Of a stretch of 11,709 nt of DNA, positions 3,014-10,754 are shown in pieces; positions within the stretch are counted from its first letter, which is position 1; every line of letters starts with the position of its first letter. Origin of the DNA: a virus. Under the pieces are notes generated by a model. That model ran no database searches. It was not told the origin of the DNA and saw only the letters and a program-made list of their open reading frames with translations. Made by a program: the position numbers and the translations under genes. The DNA lies in UHGV virus genome UHGV-0058547; one strand, written 5' to 3'.

Positions 3014-3436
3014 ATGAGTAGAAATAACGAAACAAGCGGCGTTGAACTGGTTGTTGTAGGCGTATTTGCTTTCTGTCTGGCAGTTGTTGCCTGGCTAATG
3101 AAAACTTTCGATGTTGAATGGCAAACAGCACTGGAAACTGCGCCTGGCCTGATAGTCTGGCTGCTTGTTGTCGGTGCGGGGATCTTTTTCGGGATCAAAA
3201 TGGAAACTGGCCTTATTCGCTGGGGTGCTCCACTGGCGATCGCCCTTCTGATTCCGGTATTCAAGCCAATTCTTAAGGAAGCTGCCGGAGTTCGTGAAAC
3301 GGGTGGGCTGGTTTTCGATGATATGGTTTCGTGGTATGGAACTGGCTGGGGAATGTCTCTGATGTTCTTCGGGATTCTTATCGTCGGATACGGTCTGCTT
3401 TATTGGTGGCACAGAAGGAATTCATATTATTGGTGA
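3014..3436 (+). CDS. 140-aa integral membrane protein with four predicted TM helices; function unknown
   Basis: ATG at 3014 preceded by AAGGA. Hydrophobic stretches ELVVVGVFAFCLAVVAWLM, GLIVWLLVVGAGIFFGI, APLAIALLIPVF and MSLMFFGILIVGYGLLYWW. The longer track ORF from 2867 lacks an RBS, and its extension is unlikely. Confidence 0.6.
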   Translation: MSRNNETSGVELVVVGVFAFCLAVVAWLMKTFDVEWQTALETAPGLIVWLLVVGAGIFFGIKMETGLIRWGAPLAIALLIPVFKPILKEAAGVRETGGLVFDDMVSWYGTGWGMSLMFFGILIVGYGLLYWWHRRNSYYW

Positions 3437-3502
3437 ATGTCAATCACTTGAATTTACAGGTTTTTTATAATTTCAGCCCGCGCTAGTTTGATATTGTGAA
3501 AG

Positions 3503-4084
3503 GTGAAGATGAGTATGCAACCGAATGAAGAAATGGACCTCAGGAAATTTTACGCAGAGGGAACAGCTGACTACTTAAAAACTAAAATCAAAAAAAGCGA
3601 ACGACTTTTAAAAATAAACCAATATCTATCATTTGCCCTCCCTGTCCTAGTTGGAGGATACGCATCGGTTGATCACAGCTCCAAATATTTTGATTTTTTA
3701 GTTTGGGGCACAGGGATATTATCAGTGATAGTCTTGCTTTCTAATTTATACACACTGGTCATGAAGACTGATGAAAATTTATCTCGATATCTGGAATCAT
3801 ACTCTTTCAATAAACTCCTAACTGATTTGTATGGCGAACTGTCGAGCATGTTTAAATCAAAGACAGGCAACCAGCAACCCGCTAACCATTTGTTTTCAGT
3901 GATAAAATCAAAAGATGACTTCAATGCCAAGGAAGATGAAAAATATGTTAGCAATAATGATAAGAAACGGATTATGTTCGACATTCTGGTAAAGAAAAAT
4001 AAAGAATGCGTACGTTGCAATAAAATACCGACTAAATTTAACAAGCGGAAAGGTTGCACAAATTGTGGCAATCTCGTGAAATAA
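3503..4084 (+). CDS. 2-TM membrane protein with C-terminal CxxC-x12-CxxC zinc ribbon (SLATT-like topology); function unknown
   Basis: N-terminal helix, then TM hairpin YLSFALPVLVGGYASV / LVWGTGILSVIVLLSNLYTLV, a charged helical region, and C-terminal ECVRCNKIPTKFNKRKGCTNCGN. Start ambiguous between GTG 3503, ATG 3509 and ATG 3515; GAAAGG precedes. Confidence 0.6.
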   Translation: MKMSMQPNEEMDLRKFYAEGTADYLKTKIKKSERLLKINQYLSFALPVLVGGYASVDHSSKYFDFLVWGTGILSVIVLLSNLYTLVMKTDENLSRYLESYSFNKLLTDLYGELSSMFKSKTGNQQPANHLFSVIKSKDDFNAKEDEKYVSNNDKKRIMFDILVKKNKECVRCNKIPTKFNKRKGCTNCGNLVK

Positions 4085-4095
4085 AGGAGAAACAA

Positions 4096-4287
4096 ATGAG
4101 TTATAAAGTAGATCAAGTCAAAGCTCTCTGGCTTCAATTGACTGATGCGGAGAAAAAAGAATTTACAACATATCTTTTTAATGGTGAAAAAAAATCCTTA
4201 CGTGAAGGATTCGAAAGTTTTAGTGTGAATAAAAGCACTACAATGCAATTTGGTGATGCAAACGTCTGCCCTGCTTGCGGAAAATAA
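4096..4287 (+). CDS. 63-aa small protein ending in CPACGK; function unknown
   Basis: AAAGGAGA 5 nt upstream of the ATG at 4096; begins 12 nt after the preceding stop (operon-like); followed by a strong terminator. Confidence 0.5.
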   Translation: MSYKVDQVKALWLQLTDAEKKEFTTYLFNGEKKSLREGFESFSVNKSTTMQFGDANVCPACGK

Positions 4288-4329
4288 AATCTAAAAGATT
4301 TTGGTTCGCACAATGACGTTATGCTAAAG

Positions 4330-4366
4330 AGGCCGCTGCGGGATTCGATTTTCGCAGCGGCCTTTT
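4330..4366 (+). terminator. Rho-independent terminator ending the RHH/membrane-protein operon
   Basis: 11-bp GC-rich stem AGGCCGCTGCG (4330-4340) pairing with CGCAGCGGCCT (4353-4363), 12-nt loop, then TTTT. Confidence 0.75.
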
Positions 4367-4396
4367 CAACATAACGAGTCCTACATTATGCGCACC
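4364..4396 (-). other. dif-like XerC/XerD recombination site (site 2), long central region
   Basis: Minus strand reads GGTGCGCATAA-TGTAGGACTCG-TTATGTTGAAA. E. coli dif is GGTGCGCATAA-TGTATA-TTATGTTAAAT. XerC arm 11/11, XerD arm 9/11, central region 11 nt. Confidence 0.65.
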
Positions 4397-4555
4397 AACA
4401 TAAACCAAGGGAGAATCCAGTGATTTGTGGACATCCTTGTTCTCGCAGAATATGGATGTGCTGAGTCTGGTTGGTTCGCCTAACGGTTGAAATGTCTTGC
4501 GGCCTTCACTGGGCTTGTTGAGTGTTCTGAATGTTCGCTTCAGGAACTGATTCAA

Positions 4556-5647
4556 ATGAAACGATTAATACTTGCTGCGACTGTAATAAGTGCAAGCCTG
4601 CTGCCATTTACCTGTTCGGCAAATGCCGACTCACTGGGTATCAATAAAGACTGCGATAACCATCCTGTCAGCCAGTACGGCATGGACACCATTACCGCAT
4701 TCAGTCAGTACAAGACGGAATCGAAAAAATTTAAAGATGCACTGACTGCGTTCTGCAATAAAGGCAAAACCATGGGCGACATGGGATTTGAAGCTGCCAA
4801 TGCTCACTCTCTTGCTGAAGCAAGGAAATGGACTGACTCCAGTCTTCCGGGGGGAAATGAAGAGCAGAAAAAATTTTCAGCAGCCATGGGGAGCCTGCTT
4901 TACTATGCAATGCTGAATGGATTCTCTGGTTTTGACTATCCCAGGTCGCCCGAGCAAAAAGAAAAATCAGTAAGCACATTTAATCCAAATGAGATATGTG
5001 ATGACATATCATCTAAAGCAGCCAAATATTCAACCTCGAATCTCCCCCCTCAAGTACAGATTTCATTAGCTGAGTGGAATCAAATCAAAGGCGAGTTTCA
5101 GATGGTGTGTTTTGCGGGAGTTATGGCGGGTAACAATCGCCAGTCGGTTGACTCAAAAATATTGGCTGGAATGAATGATATAGGCCCAGAAGTGAATTTG
5201 AGTGCTTATCGTTCTGGTTCGGAATACCCAAAGCCTCGCAGCAAAAACAACACGGAAAAAATTGATGCTACAGCAAGGGAGAAAGCGGCTGCAAAGAAGA
5301 AAGCAGATGCAGCCAGAAAACAAAGTGCCACCAACAAAACAAAGCAGGCTGACGATTATAAATCCAGGAGTGTTCGCCTTGACTCCCCCGATTTTCAACG
5401 CTTTCAGTCTTCACTCAGAAATGAATTTATGCGGCGAATTGGTGATGCGAAGCGTTTTTCAGGAAAAGAATGTTCAATAAATGTCTGGATGTCACAGAAA
5501 GGTGAGGTTCTGTCAGCCAGGAAGGAATCCGGAGATGAAGAGCTTTGCTCTGTGGTATTGCAGGCATCGAAGGGAATGAGGCTTAGCCCTATGAGTAATG
5601 AAGTTTACGGAGTGTTCCGTAATCCATCCCTCAACTTTAAATTCTAG
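4556..5647 (+). CDS. Secreted (signal-peptide) protein with K/A-rich helical linker and C-terminal TolA domain III-like domain
   Basis: Likely start MKRLILAATVISASLLPFTCSANA (signal peptide) at 4556, AGGA 10 nt upstream. C-terminus GKECSINVWMSQKGEVLSARKESGDEELCSVVLQASKGMRLSPMSNEVYGVFRNPSLNFKF aligns with the E. coli TolA C-terminus GKTCTLRIKLAPDGMLLDIKPEGGDPALCQAALAAAKLAKIPKPPSQAVYEVFKNAPLDFKP (recalled). Preceded by a Lys/Ala-rich stretch like TolA domain II. No TM anchor. Confidence 0.7.
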   Translation: MKRLILAATVISASLLPFTCSANADSLGINKDCDNHPVSQYGMDTITAFSQYKTESKKFKDALTAFCNKGKTMGDMGFEAANAHSLAEARKWTDSSLPGGNEEQKKFSAAMGSLLYYAMLNGFSGFDYPRSPEQKEKSVSTFNPNEICDDISSKAAKYSTSNLPPQVQISLAEWNQIKGEFQMVCFAGVMAGNNRQSVDSKILAGMNDIGPEVNLSAYRSGSEYPKPRSKNNTEKIDATAREKAAAKKKADAARKQSATNKTKQADDYKSRSVRLDSPDFQRFQSSLRNEFMRRIGDAKRFSGKECSINVWMSQKGEVLSARKESGDEELCSVVLQASKGMRLSPMSNEVYGVFRNPSLNFKF

Positions 5648-6102
5648 TTCATGCCGGGTAAGAGTCTTCACTTTTGTGGGGATTCTTATTTTCTTTTTGT
5701 TGTTATTGTCAGCTCAAGCCGCATGGCTCTCCTGCGGAGGGCTTAATATTGGGATAATATTGAAACATCAAAGACAGATGCAGATAAGTACAGAAAACCG
5801 ATAATAACAATTAAACAGTAAGTCTGTATAAGAGAATAACAGAATATATAAAAGAATTAACCCCGGTTGGCGATTTGGCGATGGTAACACAGATATTTAA
5901 ATCTGTAAAATGGTTATATTTATTTTTTTATTTACCCACCCTATCGGGTGATTCCGGCGCAGTCCTGACCCTGAGTACGCTCCCTGTAATGCACCATGCG
6001 CAACGCCAGAGTCAGTGGCAATGCAAAGCCATGACTAAGGCCAAAATCACCCCAAAACCGCATACAGGCAGTCAGCGGTCACGATGTAAGCAAAATACGA
6101 GA

Positions 6103-6122
6103 TACTGTATAAATAAACAGCC
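6103..6122. promoter_or_regulatory. LexA (SOS) box-like palindrome TACTGTATAAATAAACAGCC
   Basis: CTGT-N8-ACAG with an AT-rich spacer; 16/20 matches to the E. coli consensus TACTGTATATATATACAGTA. Contains a TATAAA -10-like hexamer. Lies in an 0.8-kb noncoding stretch about 340 bp upstream of the HNH_3-like gene. Confidence 0.5.
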
Positions 6123-6460
6123 CTGCAATTGTCAGGCATATGCGCCCTCTCACACTGACACCCCCCCTGTTCCGCCCTGTTTATTGCATCTGTACAGCCA
6201 TCTGAGCGCATCCGGCTGCAACCTGACGCATTTGCATGTGCCGTATTAATGATGCCACACAGAGCGCCTGACGGTTTGTACCATCATCTGTCACAATTCA
6301 TTGTTTGAAAAATTTTACATTTTATTTTTTGAAGTGATTACATAAATATAATCCATCTCTCCGGCATGAGTGCCTGACTGAAGGTGAATCGAAAAAGAAG
6401 GACCCGCCCCGATTCTTTTTACTCCCTTCCCTTTCAGTTAAATCACGCAGGAGAAATATC

Positions 6461-7408
6461 ATGCCCCGCTACAAAAAAGGTATCCGTAATAATTGCTTTC
6501 ATCAAAATTATACTCATGACGTATTGTTCCCCGGCGCAACATTCAGAACCCGACATAATGGAGAATGCGCCATTCTTGGCCGCTCTGATGATAAATCAAG
6601 GCGAGGCTATTATGTCGTGGAATTCAAAGACAGTGGCATCATCAAGGAAGCCTATGGCTCGCATATTAAAACTGGTTCTGTATCAGACGAAGCTTTTCCA
6701 TCATCGGAGGAAGAACGACGAAAGTTACTGATGACACCAAAATATTACGGCGTCGGATATATTGGTAATGGATGTCATTCAACTATTGAAAACACCCGAA
6801 CACACCAAAGAACGAGAGCATTCATACTCTGGCATAACATGCTGGCAAGGTGCTACATGACAACCAAAGGGAAGCAGTATTTTAAAGGCTACAAAGGTGT
6901 CACTGTATGCGAGCGATGGCATAACTTTCAGAACTTCTGCAATGACCTTCCAAAATTGCATGGCTACAACAAATGGAAGGATAATCCGGGAGAGTATGAG
7001 CTCGATAAGGATTACTCACATCGCCGGATTTATTCTGCTGACACGGTGGCATTTATCAGCACAGAAGAAAATGCCAGGGAAGCTGGATTACGACGCGTTG
7101 CCATGAAGATTCCTTCCGGGCATTATCATGAAATAAATAAAATTCGAGATGAGATATTAATGGAGGCTGAAGATGAATTAAAAAACAATCAAATTCATTA
7201 TGAAGTTGTTCTTGACGGGAATATGAAAGTAATCCTGTGTGAAACTCCTTATGGCACAGTGTTGTTCTGGCCTCTCACAAAAAAGATTCAGCGTAATTGC
7301 TACATGATTGATGGTGATGTACAGGTTTATGTTTATTACCTGCGCTGGCTCATACTTCAGTGGGAAAACAGAAATCCCGACATAAACTGTGTTGCTACAA
7401 CCTGTTGA
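6461..7408 (+). CDS. 315-aa protein with central degenerate HNH_3-like module; putative DNA-binding protein or inactive homing-endonuclease relative
   Basis: AGGAG 7 nt upstream of the ATG. Central motif W-HNM-LARCY ... YFKGYKGVTVCERWHNFQNFCND ... YELDKDYSHRRIYSADTVAFISTEENAR matches the phage HNH_3-family pattern W..M..RC ... YGGRGI.VC..W..F..F ... IDRID.DGNY.P.NCRW.T..EQ..N (recalled), but the canonical catalytic residues are not evident. Confidence 0.6.
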   Translation: MPRYKKGIRNNCFHQNYTHDVLFPGATFRTRHNGECAILGRSDDKSRRGYYVVEFKDSGIIKEAYGSHIKTGSVSDEAFPSSEEERRKLLMTPKYYGVGYIGNGCHSTIENTRTHQRTRAFILWHNMLARCYMTTKGKQYFKGYKGVTVCERWHNFQNFCNDLPKLHGYNKWKDNPGEYELDKDYSHRRIYSADTVAFISTEENAREAGLRRVAMKIPSGHYHEINKIRDEILMEAEDELKNNQIHYEVVLDGNMKVILCETPYGTVLFWPLTKKIQRNCYMIDGDVQVYVYYLRWLILQWENRNPDINCVATTC

Positions 7409-7589
7409 TGATGCTATAAAATAGTCATAAAATAACCGGCATTTCACAATGCTATCTATTAATAAGAAGAAACGAACATTCAGGATGTATCTGTAATTCC
7501 GCTGTTGCAGTGATTTTCTGTGCCAGAAAACAAGTGACAACGTCTGGCAGCTCATTGCAGAAGGCTAAATGCCAGCACTTCGTGCAGTC

Positions 7590-7619
7590 ATTTAACATGT
7601 TCAACACATTATGCGCACC
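7590..7619 (-). other. dif-like XerC/XerD recombination site (site 1)
   Basis: Minus strand reads GGTGCGCATAA-TGTGTTGA-ACATGTTAAAT. XerC arm 11/11 to E. coli dif; XerD arm 9/11, with the last 9 nt ATGTTAAAT identical; 8-nt central region. Confidence 0.7.
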
Positions 7620-8342: not shown

Positions 8343-8391
8343 TTTGATGGATAGCGAGCAGGGCTCACGCACCTACCCGCTATCCATCAAA
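8343..8391. repeat. Perfect 14-bp inverted repeat (TTTGATGGATAGCG ... CGCTATCCATCAAA) with 21-nt spacer, overlapping the gIV stop
   Basis: 8343-8356 is the exact reverse complement of 8378-8391. Position corresponds to the start of the Ff intergenic region (gIV terminator / packaging-signal hairpins). Confidence 0.6.
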
Positions 8392-9652
8392 GTGGACGAA
8401 TGATATGTGCTGTAAGCAAAATATACATAATACGCTGTTCATTGCTGTCTGCCTTGCTACTGAAAATCCAGCCTATAAGAGGAATTTTACTTATAACTGG
8501 AACTGAACGCTCGGCATTGCTGAACGATGAATCGATAAGCCCCCCCAATAACAACGTCTGACCATCCTTAATCTGGACTGTCGTCTGAATCTGGCGCTGA
8601 TTAGTAATAATATCGGATGCCTGATCATCATTGCTGATTGAATCAGCGCGAGTGTCGATAGTCAGAACTAGTTGCCCGTTACCCATGACAACAGGCGTTA
8701 CCTTGAGAGAAACGCCAACATCATGACGCTCGATAGTCTGAAACGGATTATTTACCCCGGCAGATTCGCCCGTTACCTTTCCGGTGATAAACGGCACATT
8801 CTTACCTACGGAAATGTAACCAGTCTGACCAGACTGAGTAAGAATACGCGGCGTTGAAATCACCTTAGAGCGTGAATTACTCTGGACAGCACGCAGAGAC
8901 AGCGCCAACACGTTACCATCAAAAATACCAAAAGAACCGCCCGCCGTAGAAAGAGCGCTACCCAGTGCAGAAGTATTAAAGCCCCCCGCAACCTTATGAC
9001 CGGATGCAGAACCTGCCGCAAACGATAAATCAACGCCATCAGACAAGCTGGTTTCAAACATCAGCGACTGAATGAGAACCTGATCGCGGGCAACATCCAC
9101 AGAATTGATAAAATCGGACAGAACCGGCAGCAGCTCGTCAGGCGCAGAAACAATCAGCGAGTTATTGCCTGGATAATCCACGACATTACCACCACCATTA
9201 GAATCAAGATAAATTTTAATCAGTTGCTGAACATCGGACGATCTAACTTTTGTCAGCTTAAAATTTCTGACCGTAAGCGCCACAGGTACTGGCTGGTAAG
9301 ATGGCTCAGAAGGAAAAGTATCATAAGACTGGTTATCAGAATCATCGGAATCCGAAACCATCTGTGAAGGTAATTTAGACGGCAAAGAGACTACCGCAGG
9401 ATTGCCAGAAAGCATGACAAAACCGTTAGCATTCAGAACAGACTTAAAGAAATCATCAATATTTGTTGGATTAACATCAGCATTAAATACGGTTACGTTT
9501 CCTTTAATATCAGGATTAACAATAACAGGCTTGCCAGTTTTTGAAGAATACCACTGAACAAATGAGCGAACAGATGAATTATTTAAATTAACAGTTTCAG
9601 CAGAAACGCAGAATGAACAGGCAAATAAAAAAGCAACAATAACAGAGCGCAT
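8387..9652 (-). CDS. gIV: Secretin pIV (phage export channel)
   Basis: 421 aa from ATG 9652 (AGGAG 8 nt upstream). N-terminus MRSVIVAFLFACSFCVSAETVNLNNSSVRSFVQWY parallels M13 pIV MKLLNVINFVFLMFVSSSSFAQVIEMNNSPLRDFVTWY; conserved secretin core GGSFGIFDGNVLALSLRAVQSNS..., VPFITGKVTGESAGVNNPFQTIERHDVGVSLKV, DGQTLLLGGL, IPLIGWIFSS (recalled). The track start at 9745 is a spurious upstream extension overlapping gI. Confidence 0.93.
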   Translation of the reverse strand: MRSVIVAFLFACSFCVSAETVNLNNSSVRSFVQWYSSKTGKPVIVNPDIKGNVTVFNADVNPTNIDDFFKSVLNANGFVMLSGNPAVVSLPSKLPSQMVSDSDDSDNQSYDTFPSEPSYQPVPVALTVRNFKLTKVRSSDVQQLIKIYLDSNGGGNVVDYPGNNSLIVSAPDELLPVLSDFINSVDVARDQVLIQSLMFETSLSDGVDLSFAAGSASGHKVAGGFNTSALGSALSTAGGSFGIFDGNVLALSLRAVQSNSRSKVISTPRILTQSGQTGYISVGKNVPFITGKVTGESAGVNNPFQTIERHDVGVSLKVTPVVMGNGQLVLTIDTRADSISNDDQASDIITNQRQIQTTVQIKDGQTLLLGGLIDSSFSNAERSVPVISKIPLIGWIFSSKADSNEQRIMYILLTAHIIRPL

Positions 9653-9659
9653 AATAATA

Positions 9660-10754
9660 TTACTCCTGACAGGTAACAGTCTGTAAATAACGGCCTTTTC
9701 TAATAACAACACGACAGGCATCTTTAATATCAACGGAATAACCATCTTTAATCAAATCAAAATACTGATATTTCATACCTTTTGCATCAACAAACGTAAC
9801 GGAAACGTCAAAGCCAAGTTGTGAAAAAGAATTAATAGAAAGTCGGGGTAAGTCACTGGACGAATCAGGCGTTACCGCCCTCGCCTGTTCAGCATAAGCA
9901 GATTTAATAGCTGAGATTTCATCAACATTCTTTCCAGACTGGAGCCAGAAACCAAACGCAAGCCCCAGCGCCAAAAAAGAAAGCATTAATATAAGACGGT
10001 TCGATTTGCGAAAATAAATTTTAGTGAGGCGCATATAATAATTAAATCCTCTGTGAACAGAAAATTGACCGTGCGTGATAAATGGTGGCAAAAGCGAAAA
10101 TGCGCCATGAGGATAATTATCTGTGAACGCTTGTTTGGTATTGTAAGCAGAATAAAGAGATTTTCCTGTATATATCCATTTATCAACAGTGATTGAATTA
10201 ACATTATCACCATATTTGACAATGCCAAAGTGTACCTTTGGTAAAGAAAATCTCGCCCCTGAAACCAAATTCATAATGGAGCCAACAAAAGGAATGTTTA
10301 ATTTATCTGAACGGCGACAATAAACAACATGCTCAGCAAGCGCCAGACGAGCTTGCTTATCCATTATCGAAATATCCTGAATCAAAAATATAATATCCCA
10401 GCCTAATTTTCTGGCATGTAAAAACCAGTCAATAACAGGTTGTCTGTCTTTATCACCCCATGAGCGGGAATTAAACCAAGTACCACATTCATCAAGTACA
10501 AGGAGGCCATTACGGGATTCATCGTAAGATGTATTCCCAATACCAATAGCAAGTAAATCATTTAATGAAGGCTTGTCAGGAATGCGAATAACGCGCGTTT
10601 TTTTCGCATAACGCCCAACCATAGGCATATTATGCAATTTAAGATCAAGATTAGTGGCAACAGGACAACCCTTAGCAAGTCTTTCCTGTATTCTGGAAAC
10701 ACTAACAAGTGTCTTGCCTGAGCCTAATTTGCCTGTTACTACATAAACCGCCAT
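9660..10754 (-). CDS. gI: Assembly ATPase pI (Zot-like)
   Basis: MAVYVVTGKLGSGKTLVS... with Walker A; long colinear similarity to M13 pI MAVYFVTGKLGSGKTLVSVGKIQDKI...LLVLDECGTWFNTRSW...DWFLHARKLGWDIIFLVQD...AEHVVYCRR (recalled). ATG immediately follows the gVI stop (TAAATG). Confidence 0.93.
   Translation of the reverse strand: MAVYVVTGKLGSGKTLVSVSRIQERLAKGCPVATNLDLKLHNMPMVGRYAKKTRVIRIPDKPSLNDLLAIGIGNTSYDESRNGLLVLDECGTWFNSRSWGDKDRQPVIDWFLHARKLGWDIIFLIQDISIMDKQARLALAEHVVYCRRSDKLNIPFVGSIMNLVSGARFSLPKVHFGIVKYGDNVNSITVDKWIYTGKSLYSAYNTKQAFTDNYPHGAFSLLPPFITHGQFSVHRGFNYYMRLTKIYFRKSNRLILMLSFLALGLAFGFWLQSGKNVDEISAIKSAYAEQARAVTPDSSSDLPRLSINSFSQLGFDVSVTFVDAKGMKYQYFDLIKDGYSVDIKDACRVVIRKGRYLQTVTCQE

What the first reader, a model, noticed from the sequence alone, without database searches (positions are those of the whole stretch)
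6103..6122. LexA-box-like palindrome inside a long noncoding stretch
TACTGTATAAATAAACAGCC fits CTGT-N8-ACAG with 16/20 matches to the E. coli SOS-box consensus. Filamentous prophages such as CTXphi are SOS-regulated through LexA. The site is about 340 bp upstream of the HNH_3-like gene and not adjacent to an obvious ORF, so it might control a long 5-prime UTR, a small RNA, or transcription toward the TolA-like gene on the opposite strand.
Basis: partly seen in the sequence, partly recalled or inferred. Interest (0 to 1): 0.55.

Follow-up and report, generated by a model that had tools for sequence, protein, structure and literature searches.

The report
SOS (LexA) operator in mini dif-element
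The palindrome is almost certainly a real binding site for LexA, the DNA-damage (SOS) repressor, but it belongs to a separate, apparently undescribed 3.2-kb mobile element inserted at a chromosome dimer-resolution (dif-type) site, not to the filamentous prophage, so DNA damage probably switches that small element on.

Summary
TACTGTATAAATAAACAGCC sits at 6103-6122, matches the consensus at 16/20, and is the only CTGT-N8-ACAG in the window. Its first 18 bases equal the E. coli K-12 tisB/istR-2 LexA operator, for which LexA binding is published. A LexA weight matrix gives 21.0 bits (recA 21.0, sulA 21.2). The next best site in the window scores 7.0, and 0 of 1000 random windows reach 21.

The box lies 342-375 bp upstream of the 315-aa gene in Escherichia, Citrobacter, Enterobacter, Kluyvera, Scandinavium, Buttiauxella, Serratia and Yersinia (455 bp from a shortened gene call in Rouxiella). 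Core identity is 0.90, against 0.45 in the flanks.

The context is new. The TolA-like gene, the 813-bp spacer and the "HNH-like" gene form a 3,223-bp element (4397-7619) flanked by Xer sites. Elsewhere it sits at the canonical dif site, often in tandem and without any filamentous prophage. Two inverted dif-like sites fold into a CTXphi-type forked hairpin in single-stranded DNA.

The box travels with the spacer and the 315-aa gene, not with the variable cargo. The most likely role is SOS control of this backbone, as LexA controls CTXphi rstA. The direction of the controlled promoter is unresolved: rightward about 0.5, leftward about 0.3. No conserved ORF, RNA fold or Rfam family explains the spacer.

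The parts
6103..6122 (.). LexA (SOS) operator TACTGTATAAATAAACAGCC
   Evidence: sequence. (21.0 bits, unique in the window). (18/18 identity with the K-12 tisB operator). (conserved in 9 genera). (core identity 0.90 against 0.45 in the flanks).
6108..6113 (+). Candidate -10 hexamer TATAAA inside the operator, for the rightward SOS promoter (inferred)
   Evidence: The left half ACTGTATAAA is invariant in the eight aligned sequences, while spacer positions 12-15 vary. Yersinia reads CTGTACAAA. No conserved -35 was found.
6077..6082 (.). Conserved GGTCAC motif, 21 bp left of the operator. A related copy, CTGTCACA, lies at 6288-6295.
   Evidence: GTCAC is kept in all nine lineages; only the first G varies (TGTCAC in L064). 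Its function is unknown: a regulator site, or the start region of a leftward promoter.
5648..6460 (.). 813-bp noncoding control region of the element. It consists of conserved islands separated by variable spacers.
   Evidence: Not annotated in RefSeq. No Rfam family. No conserved ORF. No conserved RNA fold.
5708..5746 (.). Block A: a 36-39-nt, almost invariant hairpin-forming island, followed by two TAATATTG repeats (5744-5751 and 5755-5762)
   Evidence: In E. coli genomes it is found only together with this element (91 genomes, 130 places).
5881..5909 (-). Conserved leftward extended -10 promoter: TTTACA, 17 nt, TGnTAnnnT
   Evidence: scan hit. In the lineages I read out from the alignments, T1, A2 and T6 of the -10 and the upstream TG are kept while the middle bases vary.
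5937..5950 (.). Conserved hairpin CACCCTATCGGGTG, preceded by a T-run. It is not a terminator on either strand.
   Evidence: Its distance to GTGAC is exactly 148 nt in six lineages.
6347..6352 (+). Proximal -10 (TATAAT) for the 315-aa gene, preceded by an A/T-rich tract
   Evidence: Conserved as T[AT][TA]AAT in all lineages. Inferred promoter.
6400..6420 (+). Conserved GGACCCGCCCCGATTCTTTTT in the leader of the 315-aa gene
   Evidence: Function unknown.
6461..7408 (+). 315-aa homing-endonuclease-like ('HNH-like') protein, the only protein gene found in every intact copy of the element
   Evidence: PHROG 2081 'HNH endonuclease', 2e-35. No Pfam or NCBIfam hit. Relatives carry PF22083, the I-HmuI NUMOD-like domain. 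AlphaFold2 pLDDT 84, with no solved structural match.
4556..5647 (+). Cargo gene: protein with a signal-peptide-like N-terminus and a TolA C-terminal domain
   Evidence: PF06519, 6e-11. N-terminal sequence read by eye from the translation. Replaced by other genes in L002, L004, L069, L071 and L073.
7590..7619 (.). attP1, the right junction: ATTTAACATGTTCAACACATTATGCGCACC (XerD arm, long central region, XerC arm)
   Evidence: The same site closes every copy of the element.
4473..4500 (.). attP2: an inverted second dif-like site, GGTTCGCCTAACGGTTGAAATGTCTTGC. It pairs with attP1 in single-stranded DNA.
   Evidence: present in all lineages, 8-75 nt from attP1 in the circular form. (forked hairpin; z -2.2 to -4.5, except the E. 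coli + strand, z -0.8, MFE not significant).
4367..4396 (.). Left junction: a hybrid Xer site derived from the filamentous phage, CAACATAACGAGTCCTACATTATGCGCACC
   Evidence: In other loci this position holds the canonical dif, ATTTAACATAATATACATTATGCGCACC.
4397..7619 (.). The whole 3,223-bp Xer-dependent integrative element (IMEX) that carries the operator
   Evidence: Tandem periods: 3,217 (E. coli ET479), 3,058 (L061), 3,251 (Serratia liquefaciens).

Best explanation
The palindrome is a functional, high-affinity LexA operator in the middle of the noncoding control region of a small integrative element.

The element is about 3.2 kb (window 4397-7619). It uses the host XerC/XerD recombinases, that is, it is an IMEX (integrative mobile element exploiting Xer). 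It carries a CTXphi-type attachment site made of two inverted dif-like sites that fold in single-stranded DNA. Its constant backbone is the 813-bp noncoding region plus one 315-aa homing-endonuclease-like protein. The gene(s) to the left, here a secreted TolA-domain protein, are exchangeable cargo.

Proposed mechanism. In undamaged cells LexA sits on the operator and blocks a promoter that overlaps it. The best candidate is a rightward promoter whose -10 is the invariant TATAAA inside the left half of the box. It would read through a ~340-nt leader into the 315-aa gene, which also has a proximal promoter at 6347-6352. DNA damage triggers LexA self-cleavage and raises expression of the backbone gene. 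This would activate the element (replication from tandem copies and/or escape as single-stranded circles), as LexA cleavage induces rstA and CTXphi production.

Shown here: the quality of the operator, its conservation, its linkage to the backbone, the Xer-site borders, the tandem arrays and the predicted folded attP.
Inferred: LexA occupancy in vivo, which promoter is controlled and in which direction, and what the 315-aa protein does.
For: Operator:
- Exact sequence.
- 21.0 bits, equal to the recA and sulA operators, and unique in the window; 0 of 1000 random windows reach it.
- 18/18 identity with the tisB operator, whose LexA binding is published (PMC3159453).

Conservation:
- The box is present 342-375 bp upstream of the 315-aa gene in Escherichia, Enterobacter, Citrobacter, Scandinavium, Kluyvera, Buttiauxella, Serratia and Yersinia, in an unassigned lineage with only 60% protein identity, and in Rouxiella (455 bp from a shortened gene call).
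- Core identity is 0.90 against 0.45 in the flanks.

Linkage to the backbone rather than the cargo.

Element:
- Canonical dif on the left and ATTTAACATGTTCAACACATTATGCGCACC on the right in 15+ loci.
- Three tandem copies at dif in E. coli ET479, with no filamentous-phage gene in the 24.8 kb fetched. Tandem copies also in L061 and L072.
- attP1 and attP2 form a forked hairpin in all lineages folded, with the same pairing on both strands. z is -2.2 to -4.5 in eight of nine folds; for the E. coli + strand z is -0.8.

Rightward reading:
- Both called genes of the element are on the + strand.
- The left half ACTGTATAAA, which contains TATAAA (5/6 of the -10 consensus), is invariant in eight aligned sequences, while the right half varies.
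- No terminator-like site is predicted on the + strand between the box and the gene.

From established knowledge: LexA together with RstR represses PrstA of CTXphi, and LexA cleavage induces the prophage (Quinones, Kimsey and Waldor 2005, recalled, not read here).
Against: - No recognisable -35 lies 16-18 bp upstream of TATAAA in any lineage, and the hexamer lacks the usual T at its last position. The promoter scores are low, 1.7-5.7 bits.
- The 315-aa gene has its own conserved proximal -10. The distal promoter would be 340 nt away, across sequence that is poorly conserved and contains a C-tract of variable length.
- An equally consistent leftward arrangement exists (see rival 1).
- More distant homologues of the 315-aa protein (25-40% identity) have no LexA box upstream. 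SOS control is therefore a property of this element, not of the protein family.
- No HUH-type replication initiator is present. Activation by replication is argued by analogy only.
- The function of the 315-aa protein is unknown. It has no solved structural relative, and the motif invariant across the family (DKD...Y...N) contains no histidine.
Confidence: 0.55

Rival explanations
1. The same operator controls a leftward promoter. The -35 (TTTATA/TATACA) lies inside the box. A weak -10 lies directly before the invariant GTGACC (6082->6077). Transcription starts near 6075 and runs left through the constant-length 148-nt spacer toward the conserved leftward promoter at 5909-5881 and Block A. The product would be a noncoding RNA of the same sense as the window - strand, the strand predicted to integrate as single-stranded DNA. 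Possible roles are a regulatory RNA, an RNA antisense to the cargo, or a replication primer. Both directions could also be controlled at once, as I recall for the single tisAB/istR-2 box.
For: - In 8 of 9 lineages a promoter with its -35 in the box and its -10 starting 31-36 nt from the start of the box appears among the four best hits on the - strand. No + strand position recurs as often.
- The semi-conserved yAnAT lies just before the invariant GTGAC.
- The orientation CTGTTTATTTATACAG followed by a -10 is the one used at tisAB.
- The - strand RNA of 5930-6300 folds better than shuffles (z -2.2) and the + strand does not (z -0.65).
- The crossover geometry deduced from the junctions (my inference) makes the - strand the integrating strand.
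Against: - The -10 candidates lack the conserved last T and score 0.7-8.3 bits, inconsistently.
- There is no terminator, no conserved RNA structure and no conserved ORF downstream.
- The fold seen in the window is not kept in relatives.
- No protein gene of the element is on that strand.
Confidence: 0.3
2. The box drives an SOS-induced small toxic peptide, a type I toxin module like tisB/istR or dinQ/agrB, encoded in the spacer. Candidates are the 40-codon - strand ORF 6063->5941 or the 21-codon + strand ORF from 6140.
For: - The operator is identical to that of tisB.
- The window has a partly hydrophobic 40-aa ORF starting 40 nt from the box on the - strand.
- Four lineages have a start codon at the aligned position, and their peptides share WGD...FALP-like residues.
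Against: - That frame is closed by stop codons in L004, L008, L011 and L060.
- 11-nt deletions occur in three lineages.
- Substitutions show no three-base periodicity (p = 0.38-0.98).
- The + strand ORF is broken by a C-tract that varies from 4 to 8 C between copies.
- Similarity to the tisB locus stops at the 18-nt operator.
- No NCBIfam hit.
Confidence: 0.05
3. LexA binds the site, but its role is architectural rather than transcriptional. It would be part of a nucleoprotein complex on the noncoding region, such as a replication origin or a recombination accessory region, so that DNA damage frees the origin.
For: - The spacing between GTGAC and the hairpin at 5937-5950 is fixed at 148 bp despite about 50% sequence divergence. 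Length changes of exactly 11 bp, one helical turn, occur in two of the nine lineages and in a further E. coli-type copy, L057.
- Short direct repeats (TTGGCGAT x2, TAATATTG x2 at 11-bp spacing) and an A/T-rich tract resemble origin architecture.
Against: - To my knowledge LexA is not known to act in this way.
- One lineage has +14 bp and one +1 bp, which breaks the phasing.
- No origin-like similarity to the co-resident phage.
- This idea is compatible with transcriptional control and does not exclude it.
Confidence: 0.07
4. It is a chance palindrome in A/T-rich spacer DNA with no function.
For: The loose pattern CTGT-N8-ACAG alone occurs at least once in 17 of 200 shuffled windows.
Against: - A 21-bit score is never reached in 1000 random windows.
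- It is invariant across nine genera while the flanks have diverged to 45% identity.
Confidence: 0.03

Closest known systems
tisB/istR-2 LexA operator of E. coli K-12 (TACTGTATAAATAAACAGTA)
   Same: 18 of 20 bases are identical, including both half-sites and the whole spacer. Like that operator, it stands alone as a single box in a long noncoding region.
   Different: The last two bases are CC instead of TA, the same ending as the polB operator. There is no homology outside the box, no TisB-like ORF and no IstR-like RNA. The resemblance is convergence on a strong operator, not common descent.
CTXphi of Vibrio cholerae: an IMEX whose rstA promoter is repressed by LexA and RstR
   Same: - It integrates at dif without an integrase of its own.
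- Its attachment site is made of two inverted dif-like sites that fold into a forked hairpin in single-stranded DNA.
- A functional dif is regenerated on one side, and copies accumulate in tandem.
- A LexA operator sits in the control region upstream of a backbone gene.
   Different: - 3.2 kb instead of 6.9 kb.
- Neither of its two called proteins is a recognisable HUH/RstA-type replication protein, a coat or assembly protein, or a repressor.
- The two genes are antisense to the strand predicted to integrate.
- The operator lies 340 bp from the gene, inside an 813-bp noncoding region.
Satellite IMEXs: TLCphi and RS1 of V. cholerae
   Same: It is small, integrated at dif beside a filamentous prophage (here between copies of a CUS-1/YpfPhi-like phage), and lacks morphogenesis genes, so it probably needs a helper.
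   Different: - TLCphi has a double-stranded attP with a defective XerD arm and brings the activator XafT and a Cri replication protein (PMC6744903, PMC9226527; abstracts only). No Pfam, NCBIfam or PADLOC match of any other kind was found here.
- This element also occurs with no filamentous-phage gene in the DNA fetched around it.
- No sequence is shared with the co-resident phage.
CUS-1 / YpfPhi filamentous prophages of E. coli and Yersinia pestis
   Same: The same integration site (dif, next to hipA in E. coli), the same style of paired inverted Xer sites (phage pair at 4303-4329 and 4367-4396) and the same tandem organisation (PMC4266046).
   Different: The LexA box is not in the phage. The phage core in this window has no LexA-like site. 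Most prophages of this type in E. coli lack the 3.2-kb insert (65% coverage of the window).

Membership tests
LexA (SOS) operator, gammaproteobacterial type | Palindromic CTGT-N8-ACAG within a 20-mer close to TACTGTATATATATACAGTA | tested here: met
   16/20 matches, both half-sites perfect.
LexA (SOS) operator, gammaproteobacterial type | Score or heterology index within the range of experimentally validated operators | tested here: met
   21.0 bits; heterology-type index 5.3, against 2.0-11.9 for 16 K-12 operators. Relatives score 6.5-10.5. The index is my own re-computation from 15-16 sites, not the published table.
LexA (SOS) operator, gammaproteobacterial type | Overlaps or abuts the -35, -10 or start site of a promoter | tested here: inconclusive
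   Candidate -10 (TATAAA, + strand) or -35 (TATACA, - strand) inside the box. Neither gives a consistent high-scoring promoter.
LexA (SOS) operator, gammaproteobacterial type | Bound by LexA; the adjacent transcript is induced by DNA damage | not testable with these tools
   Indirect only. The identical 18-mer (tisB operator) was used for LexA binding measurements (PMC3159453).
IMEX of the CTXphi type | Integrated at dif or a dif-like site and bounded by Xer sites, with no recombinase gene of its own | tested here: met
   Canonical dif on the left and a conserved hybrid site on the right in 15+ loci. Only two called genes, neither a recombinase.
IMEX of the CTXphi type | Two inverted dif-like sites that fold into a forked hairpin in single-stranded DNA | tested here: met
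   attP1 7590-7619 and attP2 4473-4500. The same pairing is predicted in every lineage folded, with loops of 8-75 nt; z is -2.2 to -4.5 in eight of nine folds and -0.8 for the E. coli + strand.
IMEX of the CTXphi type | Rolling-circle replication protein (HUH, RstA-like) and filamentous-phage morphogenesis genes | tested here: not met
   The 315-aa protein has no Pfam or NCBIfam family and no structural match. There are no coat, Zot-like or secretin genes inside 4397-7619. The element works like a CTXphi-type IMEX at integration, but it is not a filamentous phage.
IMEX of the CTXphi type | XerC-dependent integration of single-stranded DNA | not testable with these tools
   The junction sequences fit a XerC-side crossover on the window - strand (my inference).
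SOS-induced type I toxin-antitoxin module (tisB/istR, dinQ/agrB) | Conserved small hydrophobic ORF downstream of the box, plus an antisense RNA | tested here: not met
   Frames are broken in several lineages and there is no codon periodicity. No Rfam hit. No homology beyond the box.
Filamentous-phage lysogeny switch (box between the repressor and replication genes of the phage) | Box located in the rep/regulator intergenic region of the phage itself | tested here: not met
   The phage region 2500-2950 has a best score of 1.3 bits. The box lies in a separable element that is absent from most prophages of this type.

The most novel reading that the evidence does not exclude
The 3.2-kb element would be a new type of minimal, single-strand-integrating satellite. 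In this reading it replicates without an HUH protein. Its one conserved protein, related to nicking homing endonucleases of the I-HmuI group, is made after LexA cleavage and nicks an origin inside the 813-bp noncoding region (candidate: the invariant Block A, 5708-5746). Replication across tandem copies then releases single-stranded circles. These fold their attP and are spread by a helper filamentous phage or by other means. The LexA box would be the master switch of an unrecognised class of elements that occupy dif in many Enterobacterales.
Probability: 0.2. Interest if true: 0.75.

Novelty: new variant of a known kind. Interest (0 to 1): 0.55.

Why it matters
The operator itself is an ordinary kind of feature. 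It is, however, a very strong one, and it marks the control centre of an element that I did not find described in five full-text searches and four papers consulted, none of which names it.

That element sits at the chromosome dimer-resolution site in about 1.8% of complete E. coli genomes (97 of 5426), including the laboratory strain E. coli C. It is also present in at least eight other enterobacterial genera and on plasmids.

If SOS induction mobilises it, then antibiotics and other DNA-damaging stresses would drive its spread and that of its cargo. Here the cargo is a secreted TolA-domain protein, which could block filamentous phages or colicins.

It would also show that CTXphi-style single-strand integration and LexA control can work with a two-gene element that lacks any known replication protein. 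The hypothesis can be tested directly in E. coli C.

Tried and rejected
- Rfam, at gathering thresholds for the whole window and at permissive thresholds for 5600-6500: nothing credible.
- Small ORFs in all six frames of 5860-6300 in five lineages. I followed two candidate peptides in detail and rejected both, because of stop codons, 11-nt deletions, a variable C-tract and no codon periodicity.
- A conserved RNA structure left of the box and in the region of the leftward promoter: only invariant short hairpins, no covariation. The long hairpin predicted for the window's - strand RNA is not conserved.
- A weight-matrix sigma-70 promoter scan of both strands in nine lineages: no decisive answer on direction.
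- A long single-stranded-DNA hairpin around the box, of the kind seen in plasmid leading-region promoters: the fold of 5930-6300 as DNA is no better than shuffles (z -0.8).
- Similarity between the element and the co-resident phage, which would indicate a shared origin: none. No match to any deposited phage genome.
- LexA boxes upstream of distant homologues of the 315-aa protein (gamma-type and Firmicutes-type motifs): none.
- Literature: searches for the element, its protein accessions and E. coli IMEXs found nothing that describes it.
- A viral-contig scan with the Block A pattern: no hit.

Full report
**1. The observation**

Positions 6103-6122 read TACTGTATAAATAAACAGCC. This matches the E. 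coli SOS-box consensus at 16 of 20 positions, with both CTGT and ACAG intact. It is the only CTGT-N8-ACAG in the window. The loose pattern alone is not very improbable: 0.09 matches are expected, and 17 of 200 shuffles have at least one.

I built a symmetrised weight matrix from the K-12 operators listed in Table 4 of PMC3009722, leaving tisB out.
- The site scores 21.0 bits, the same as the recA (21.0) and sulA (21.2) operators and far above polB (13.1).
- The next best 20-mer in the window scores 7.0 bits.
- None of 1000 first-order Markov random windows reaches 21.0.

A full-text search for the 16-mer showed that it is the core of the tisB/istR-2 operator. In the K-12 genome the identity covers 18 bases. 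A 24-bp oligonucleotide with that operator was used for physical studies of LexA binding (PMC3159453). The two bases that differ (CC for TA) also end the functional polB operator.

**2. Conservation**

The 811-bp spacer is 95-100% identical in 97 of 5426 complete E. coli genomes. It is about 75% identical on Citrobacter, Klebsiella and Enterobacter plasmids. I used the downstream 315-aa protein to fetch relatives from genome and metagenome collections.

Every intact relative has the box 342-375 bp upstream of the gene:
- Escherichia, Enterobacter, Citrobacter, Scandinavium, Kluyvera, Buttiauxella and Serratia;
- Yersinia, where it reads TGCTGTACAAATAGCCAGTG;
- an unassigned lineage with only 60% protein identity;
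- Rouxiella, where the distance is 455 bp from a shortened gene call.

Over nine lineages the 16-bp core is 90% identical on average, and the sequence on either side is 45% identical. The site is therefore under selection. Homologues at 25-40% identity in other bacteria have no such box.

**3. What the box belongs to**

The window is a CUS-1/YpfPhi-like filamentous prophage. Its rep gene is at 1521-2615, zot at 9660-10754 and the secretin gene at 8387-9745, all on the - strand. Most such prophages in E. coli cover only 65% of the window.

The part they lack includes a block bounded by Xer recombination sites:
- on the left, CAACATAACGAGTCCTACATTATGCGCACC (4367-4396);
- on the right, ATTTAACATGTTCAACACATTATGCGCACC (7590-7619).

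In more than fifteen other loci the same block is bounded on the left by the canonical dif, ATTTAACATAATATACATTATGCGCACC, and on the right by the same second site.
- E. coli ET479 carries three head-to-tail copies (period 3,217 bp) at dif next to hipA. No filamentous-phage gene is present in the 24.8 kb fetched.
- Tandem copies also occur in a metagenome contig (3,058 bp) and in Serratia liquefaciens (3,251 bp).
- E. coli C has one copy.
- An Enterobacter kobei plasmid has one at a dif-like site.

The block 4397-7619 (3,223 bp) is therefore an independent integrative element of the kind called IMEX.

In its circular form a second, inverted dif-like site (4473-4500) lies 8-75 nt from the first. 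As single-stranded DNA the two sites are predicted to pair into a forked hairpin with an unpaired central region in every lineage folded. z is -2.2 to -4.5 in eight of nine folds. For the E. coli + strand z is only -0.8, although the pairing is the same. This is the design of the CTXphi attachment site (recalled from the literature; reviewed in PMC4246890, of which I saw only the abstract). The junction sequences fit a XerC-side crossover on the window - strand (my inference). That strand is antisense to the element's two genes.

**4. Anatomy of the element**

The constant part is the 813-bp noncoding region plus the 315-aa gene. The gene or genes between the left border and the noncoding region vary. 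Here, and in L005, L061 and L065, it is a TolA-domain protein with a signal-peptide-like N-terminus. In L002, L004, L071 and L073 it is three small proteins of unknown function. Yersinia has two.

The noncoding region has:
- no Rfam match;
- no conserved ORF;
- no conserved RNA fold.

It consists of invariant islands separated by variable spacers. From left to right the islands are:
- Block A (5708-5746) with two TAATATTG repeats;
- a leftward extended -10 promoter, in which exactly the diagnostic bases are conserved (TTTACA, 17 nt, TGnTAnnnT; 5909->5881);
- a T-run and the hairpin CACCCTATCGGGTG (5937-5950);
- a spacer that is exactly 148 nt long in six lineages although only about half its bases are conserved;
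- GGTCAC (6077-6082);
- the LexA box;
- CCCTGTTTAT (6175-6184);
- CTGTCACA (6288-6295);
- an A/T-rich tract with TATAAT (6347-6352);
- GGACCCGCCCCGATTCTTTTT (6400-6420).

The 315-aa protein matches phage families annotated as HNH endonucleases (PHROG 2081, 2e-35). Relatives carry the I-HmuI NUMOD-like domain, and some are fused to thymidylate synthase. It has no Pfam family and no solved structural relative. The motif invariant across the family (DKD...Y...N) contains no histidine. Whether it cuts DNA is unknown.

**5. How the box most likely works**

A LexA operator of this strength, kept at a fixed place in the control region of a mobile element, most simply represses a promoter that overlaps it.

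Two arrangements fit the sequence.
- Rightward: the invariant TATAAA in the left half of the box would be the -10. No conserved -35 accompanies it.
- Leftward: TATACA/TTTATA in the box would be the -35. A weak -10 would lie just before the invariant GTGACC. This is the orientation used at tisAB.

A weight-matrix scan did not decide between them. The leftward position recurs in 8 of 9 lineages but with poor -10 hexamers. The rightward -10 is better and is invariant in eight aligned sequences, but it stands alone.

I favour the rightward reading, at about 0.5, for three reasons. Both called genes of the element are on that strand. The only conserved protein gene lies downstream with no predicted terminator in between. 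The arrangement parallels LexA control of rstA in CTXphi. The leftward reading, or control of both directions, gets about 0.3.

The consequence of induction is inferred by analogy and not shown. It would be replication from tandem copies and release of single-stranded circles that integrate at dif.

**6. Comparison with what is known, and verdict**

The site passes the sequence tests for a LexA operator. Promoter overlap is inconclusive, and binding could not be tested.

The element passes the integration-related tests for a CTXphi-type IMEX. It fails the test for a filamentous phage or a known satellite: it has no HUH replication protein and no morphogenesis genes. It is not a tisB-like toxin module.

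Five full-text searches and four papers consulted turned up no description of this element. That search was limited, so I rate the finding as a new variant of a known kind, with moderate interest.

Noticed in passing
window 6161-6167: A C-tract (7 C here) varies from 4 to 8 C among otherwise nearly identical copies, including copies within one genome (L065). This could be slipped-strand variation or homopolymer sequencing error. It breaks every + strand ORF that crosses it.
   Followed up: partly
window 5951-6076 (between the hairpin and GTGAC): The spacer length is fixed: GTGAC to the end of the hairpin block is exactly 148 nt in six lineages at about 50% identity. It is 137 nt in two of the nine lineages compared, through independent 11-nt deletions at different places; a further E. 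coli-type copy (L057) has a third 11-nt deletion. It is 149 nt in one lineage and 162 in another. There is no coding periodicity and no conserved fold. It is unexplained and may reflect helical phasing between protein sites.
   Followed up: partly
window 5881-5909 (- strand): A leftward extended -10 promoter is conserved only at its diagnostic bases (TTTACA, 17 nt, TGnTAnnnT). The transcript would run toward Block A and antisense into the cargo gene. No terminator or conserved RNA structure was found.
   Followed up: partly
window 5708-5762: Block A is about 36 nt invariant across all lineages and forms a short G+C-rich hairpin. It is followed by two TAATATTG repeats 11 bp apart; in L064 the repeats sit elsewhere in the spacer. 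CTTAATATTGG resembles the f1 gene II nick region as I recall it (CTTTAATAGTGG). That is a lead from memory only. Block A is a candidate origin or protein-binding site.
   Followed up: partly
window 4556-5647: The cargo protein has a signal-peptide-like N-terminus (MKRLILAATVISASLLPFTCSANA, read by eye) and a C-terminal TolA domain III. It could be a periplasmic decoy for the g3p protein of filamentous phages or for group A colicins, giving superinfection exclusion. Not tested.
   Followed up: no
window 4303-4396: The filamentous phage has its own pair of inverted dif-like sites (4303-4329 and 4367-4396) around a G+C-rich hairpin (about 4330-4366). This is the same CTXphi/YpfPhi-style attachment design as in the small element, but with the crossover site on the other arm.
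   Followed up: partly
window 3503-4084: A 'mobilome CxxCx(11)CxxC' protein (TIGR04402, 1e-41) lies in the variable, regulator-side part of the prophage. UM146-type prophages carry other genes there.
   Followed up: no
L007 (JARKOR010000214.1): A contig binned as 'Candidatus Nanosynbacter' carries the element with 99% protein identity to the E. coli copy. This is almost certainly a mis-binned enterobacterial contig.
   Followed up: no
L074 (Tatumella) 3347-4204; L067 (metagenome): These are decayed copies. In Tatumella only 857 bp with a truncated 315-aa gene remain between dif and the hybrid site. In L067 an IS3-family element has replaced the noncoding region from about 190 bp upstream of the gene, removing the LexA box.
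   Followed up: partly
L001 (E. coli C, NZ_CP020543.1 2,329,444-2,332,296): The laboratory strain E. coli C carries one intact copy of the element next to hipBA, bounded by a canonical dif. IS3-family elements and a group II intron lie further upstream. This makes it a convenient experimental host.
   Followed up: partly
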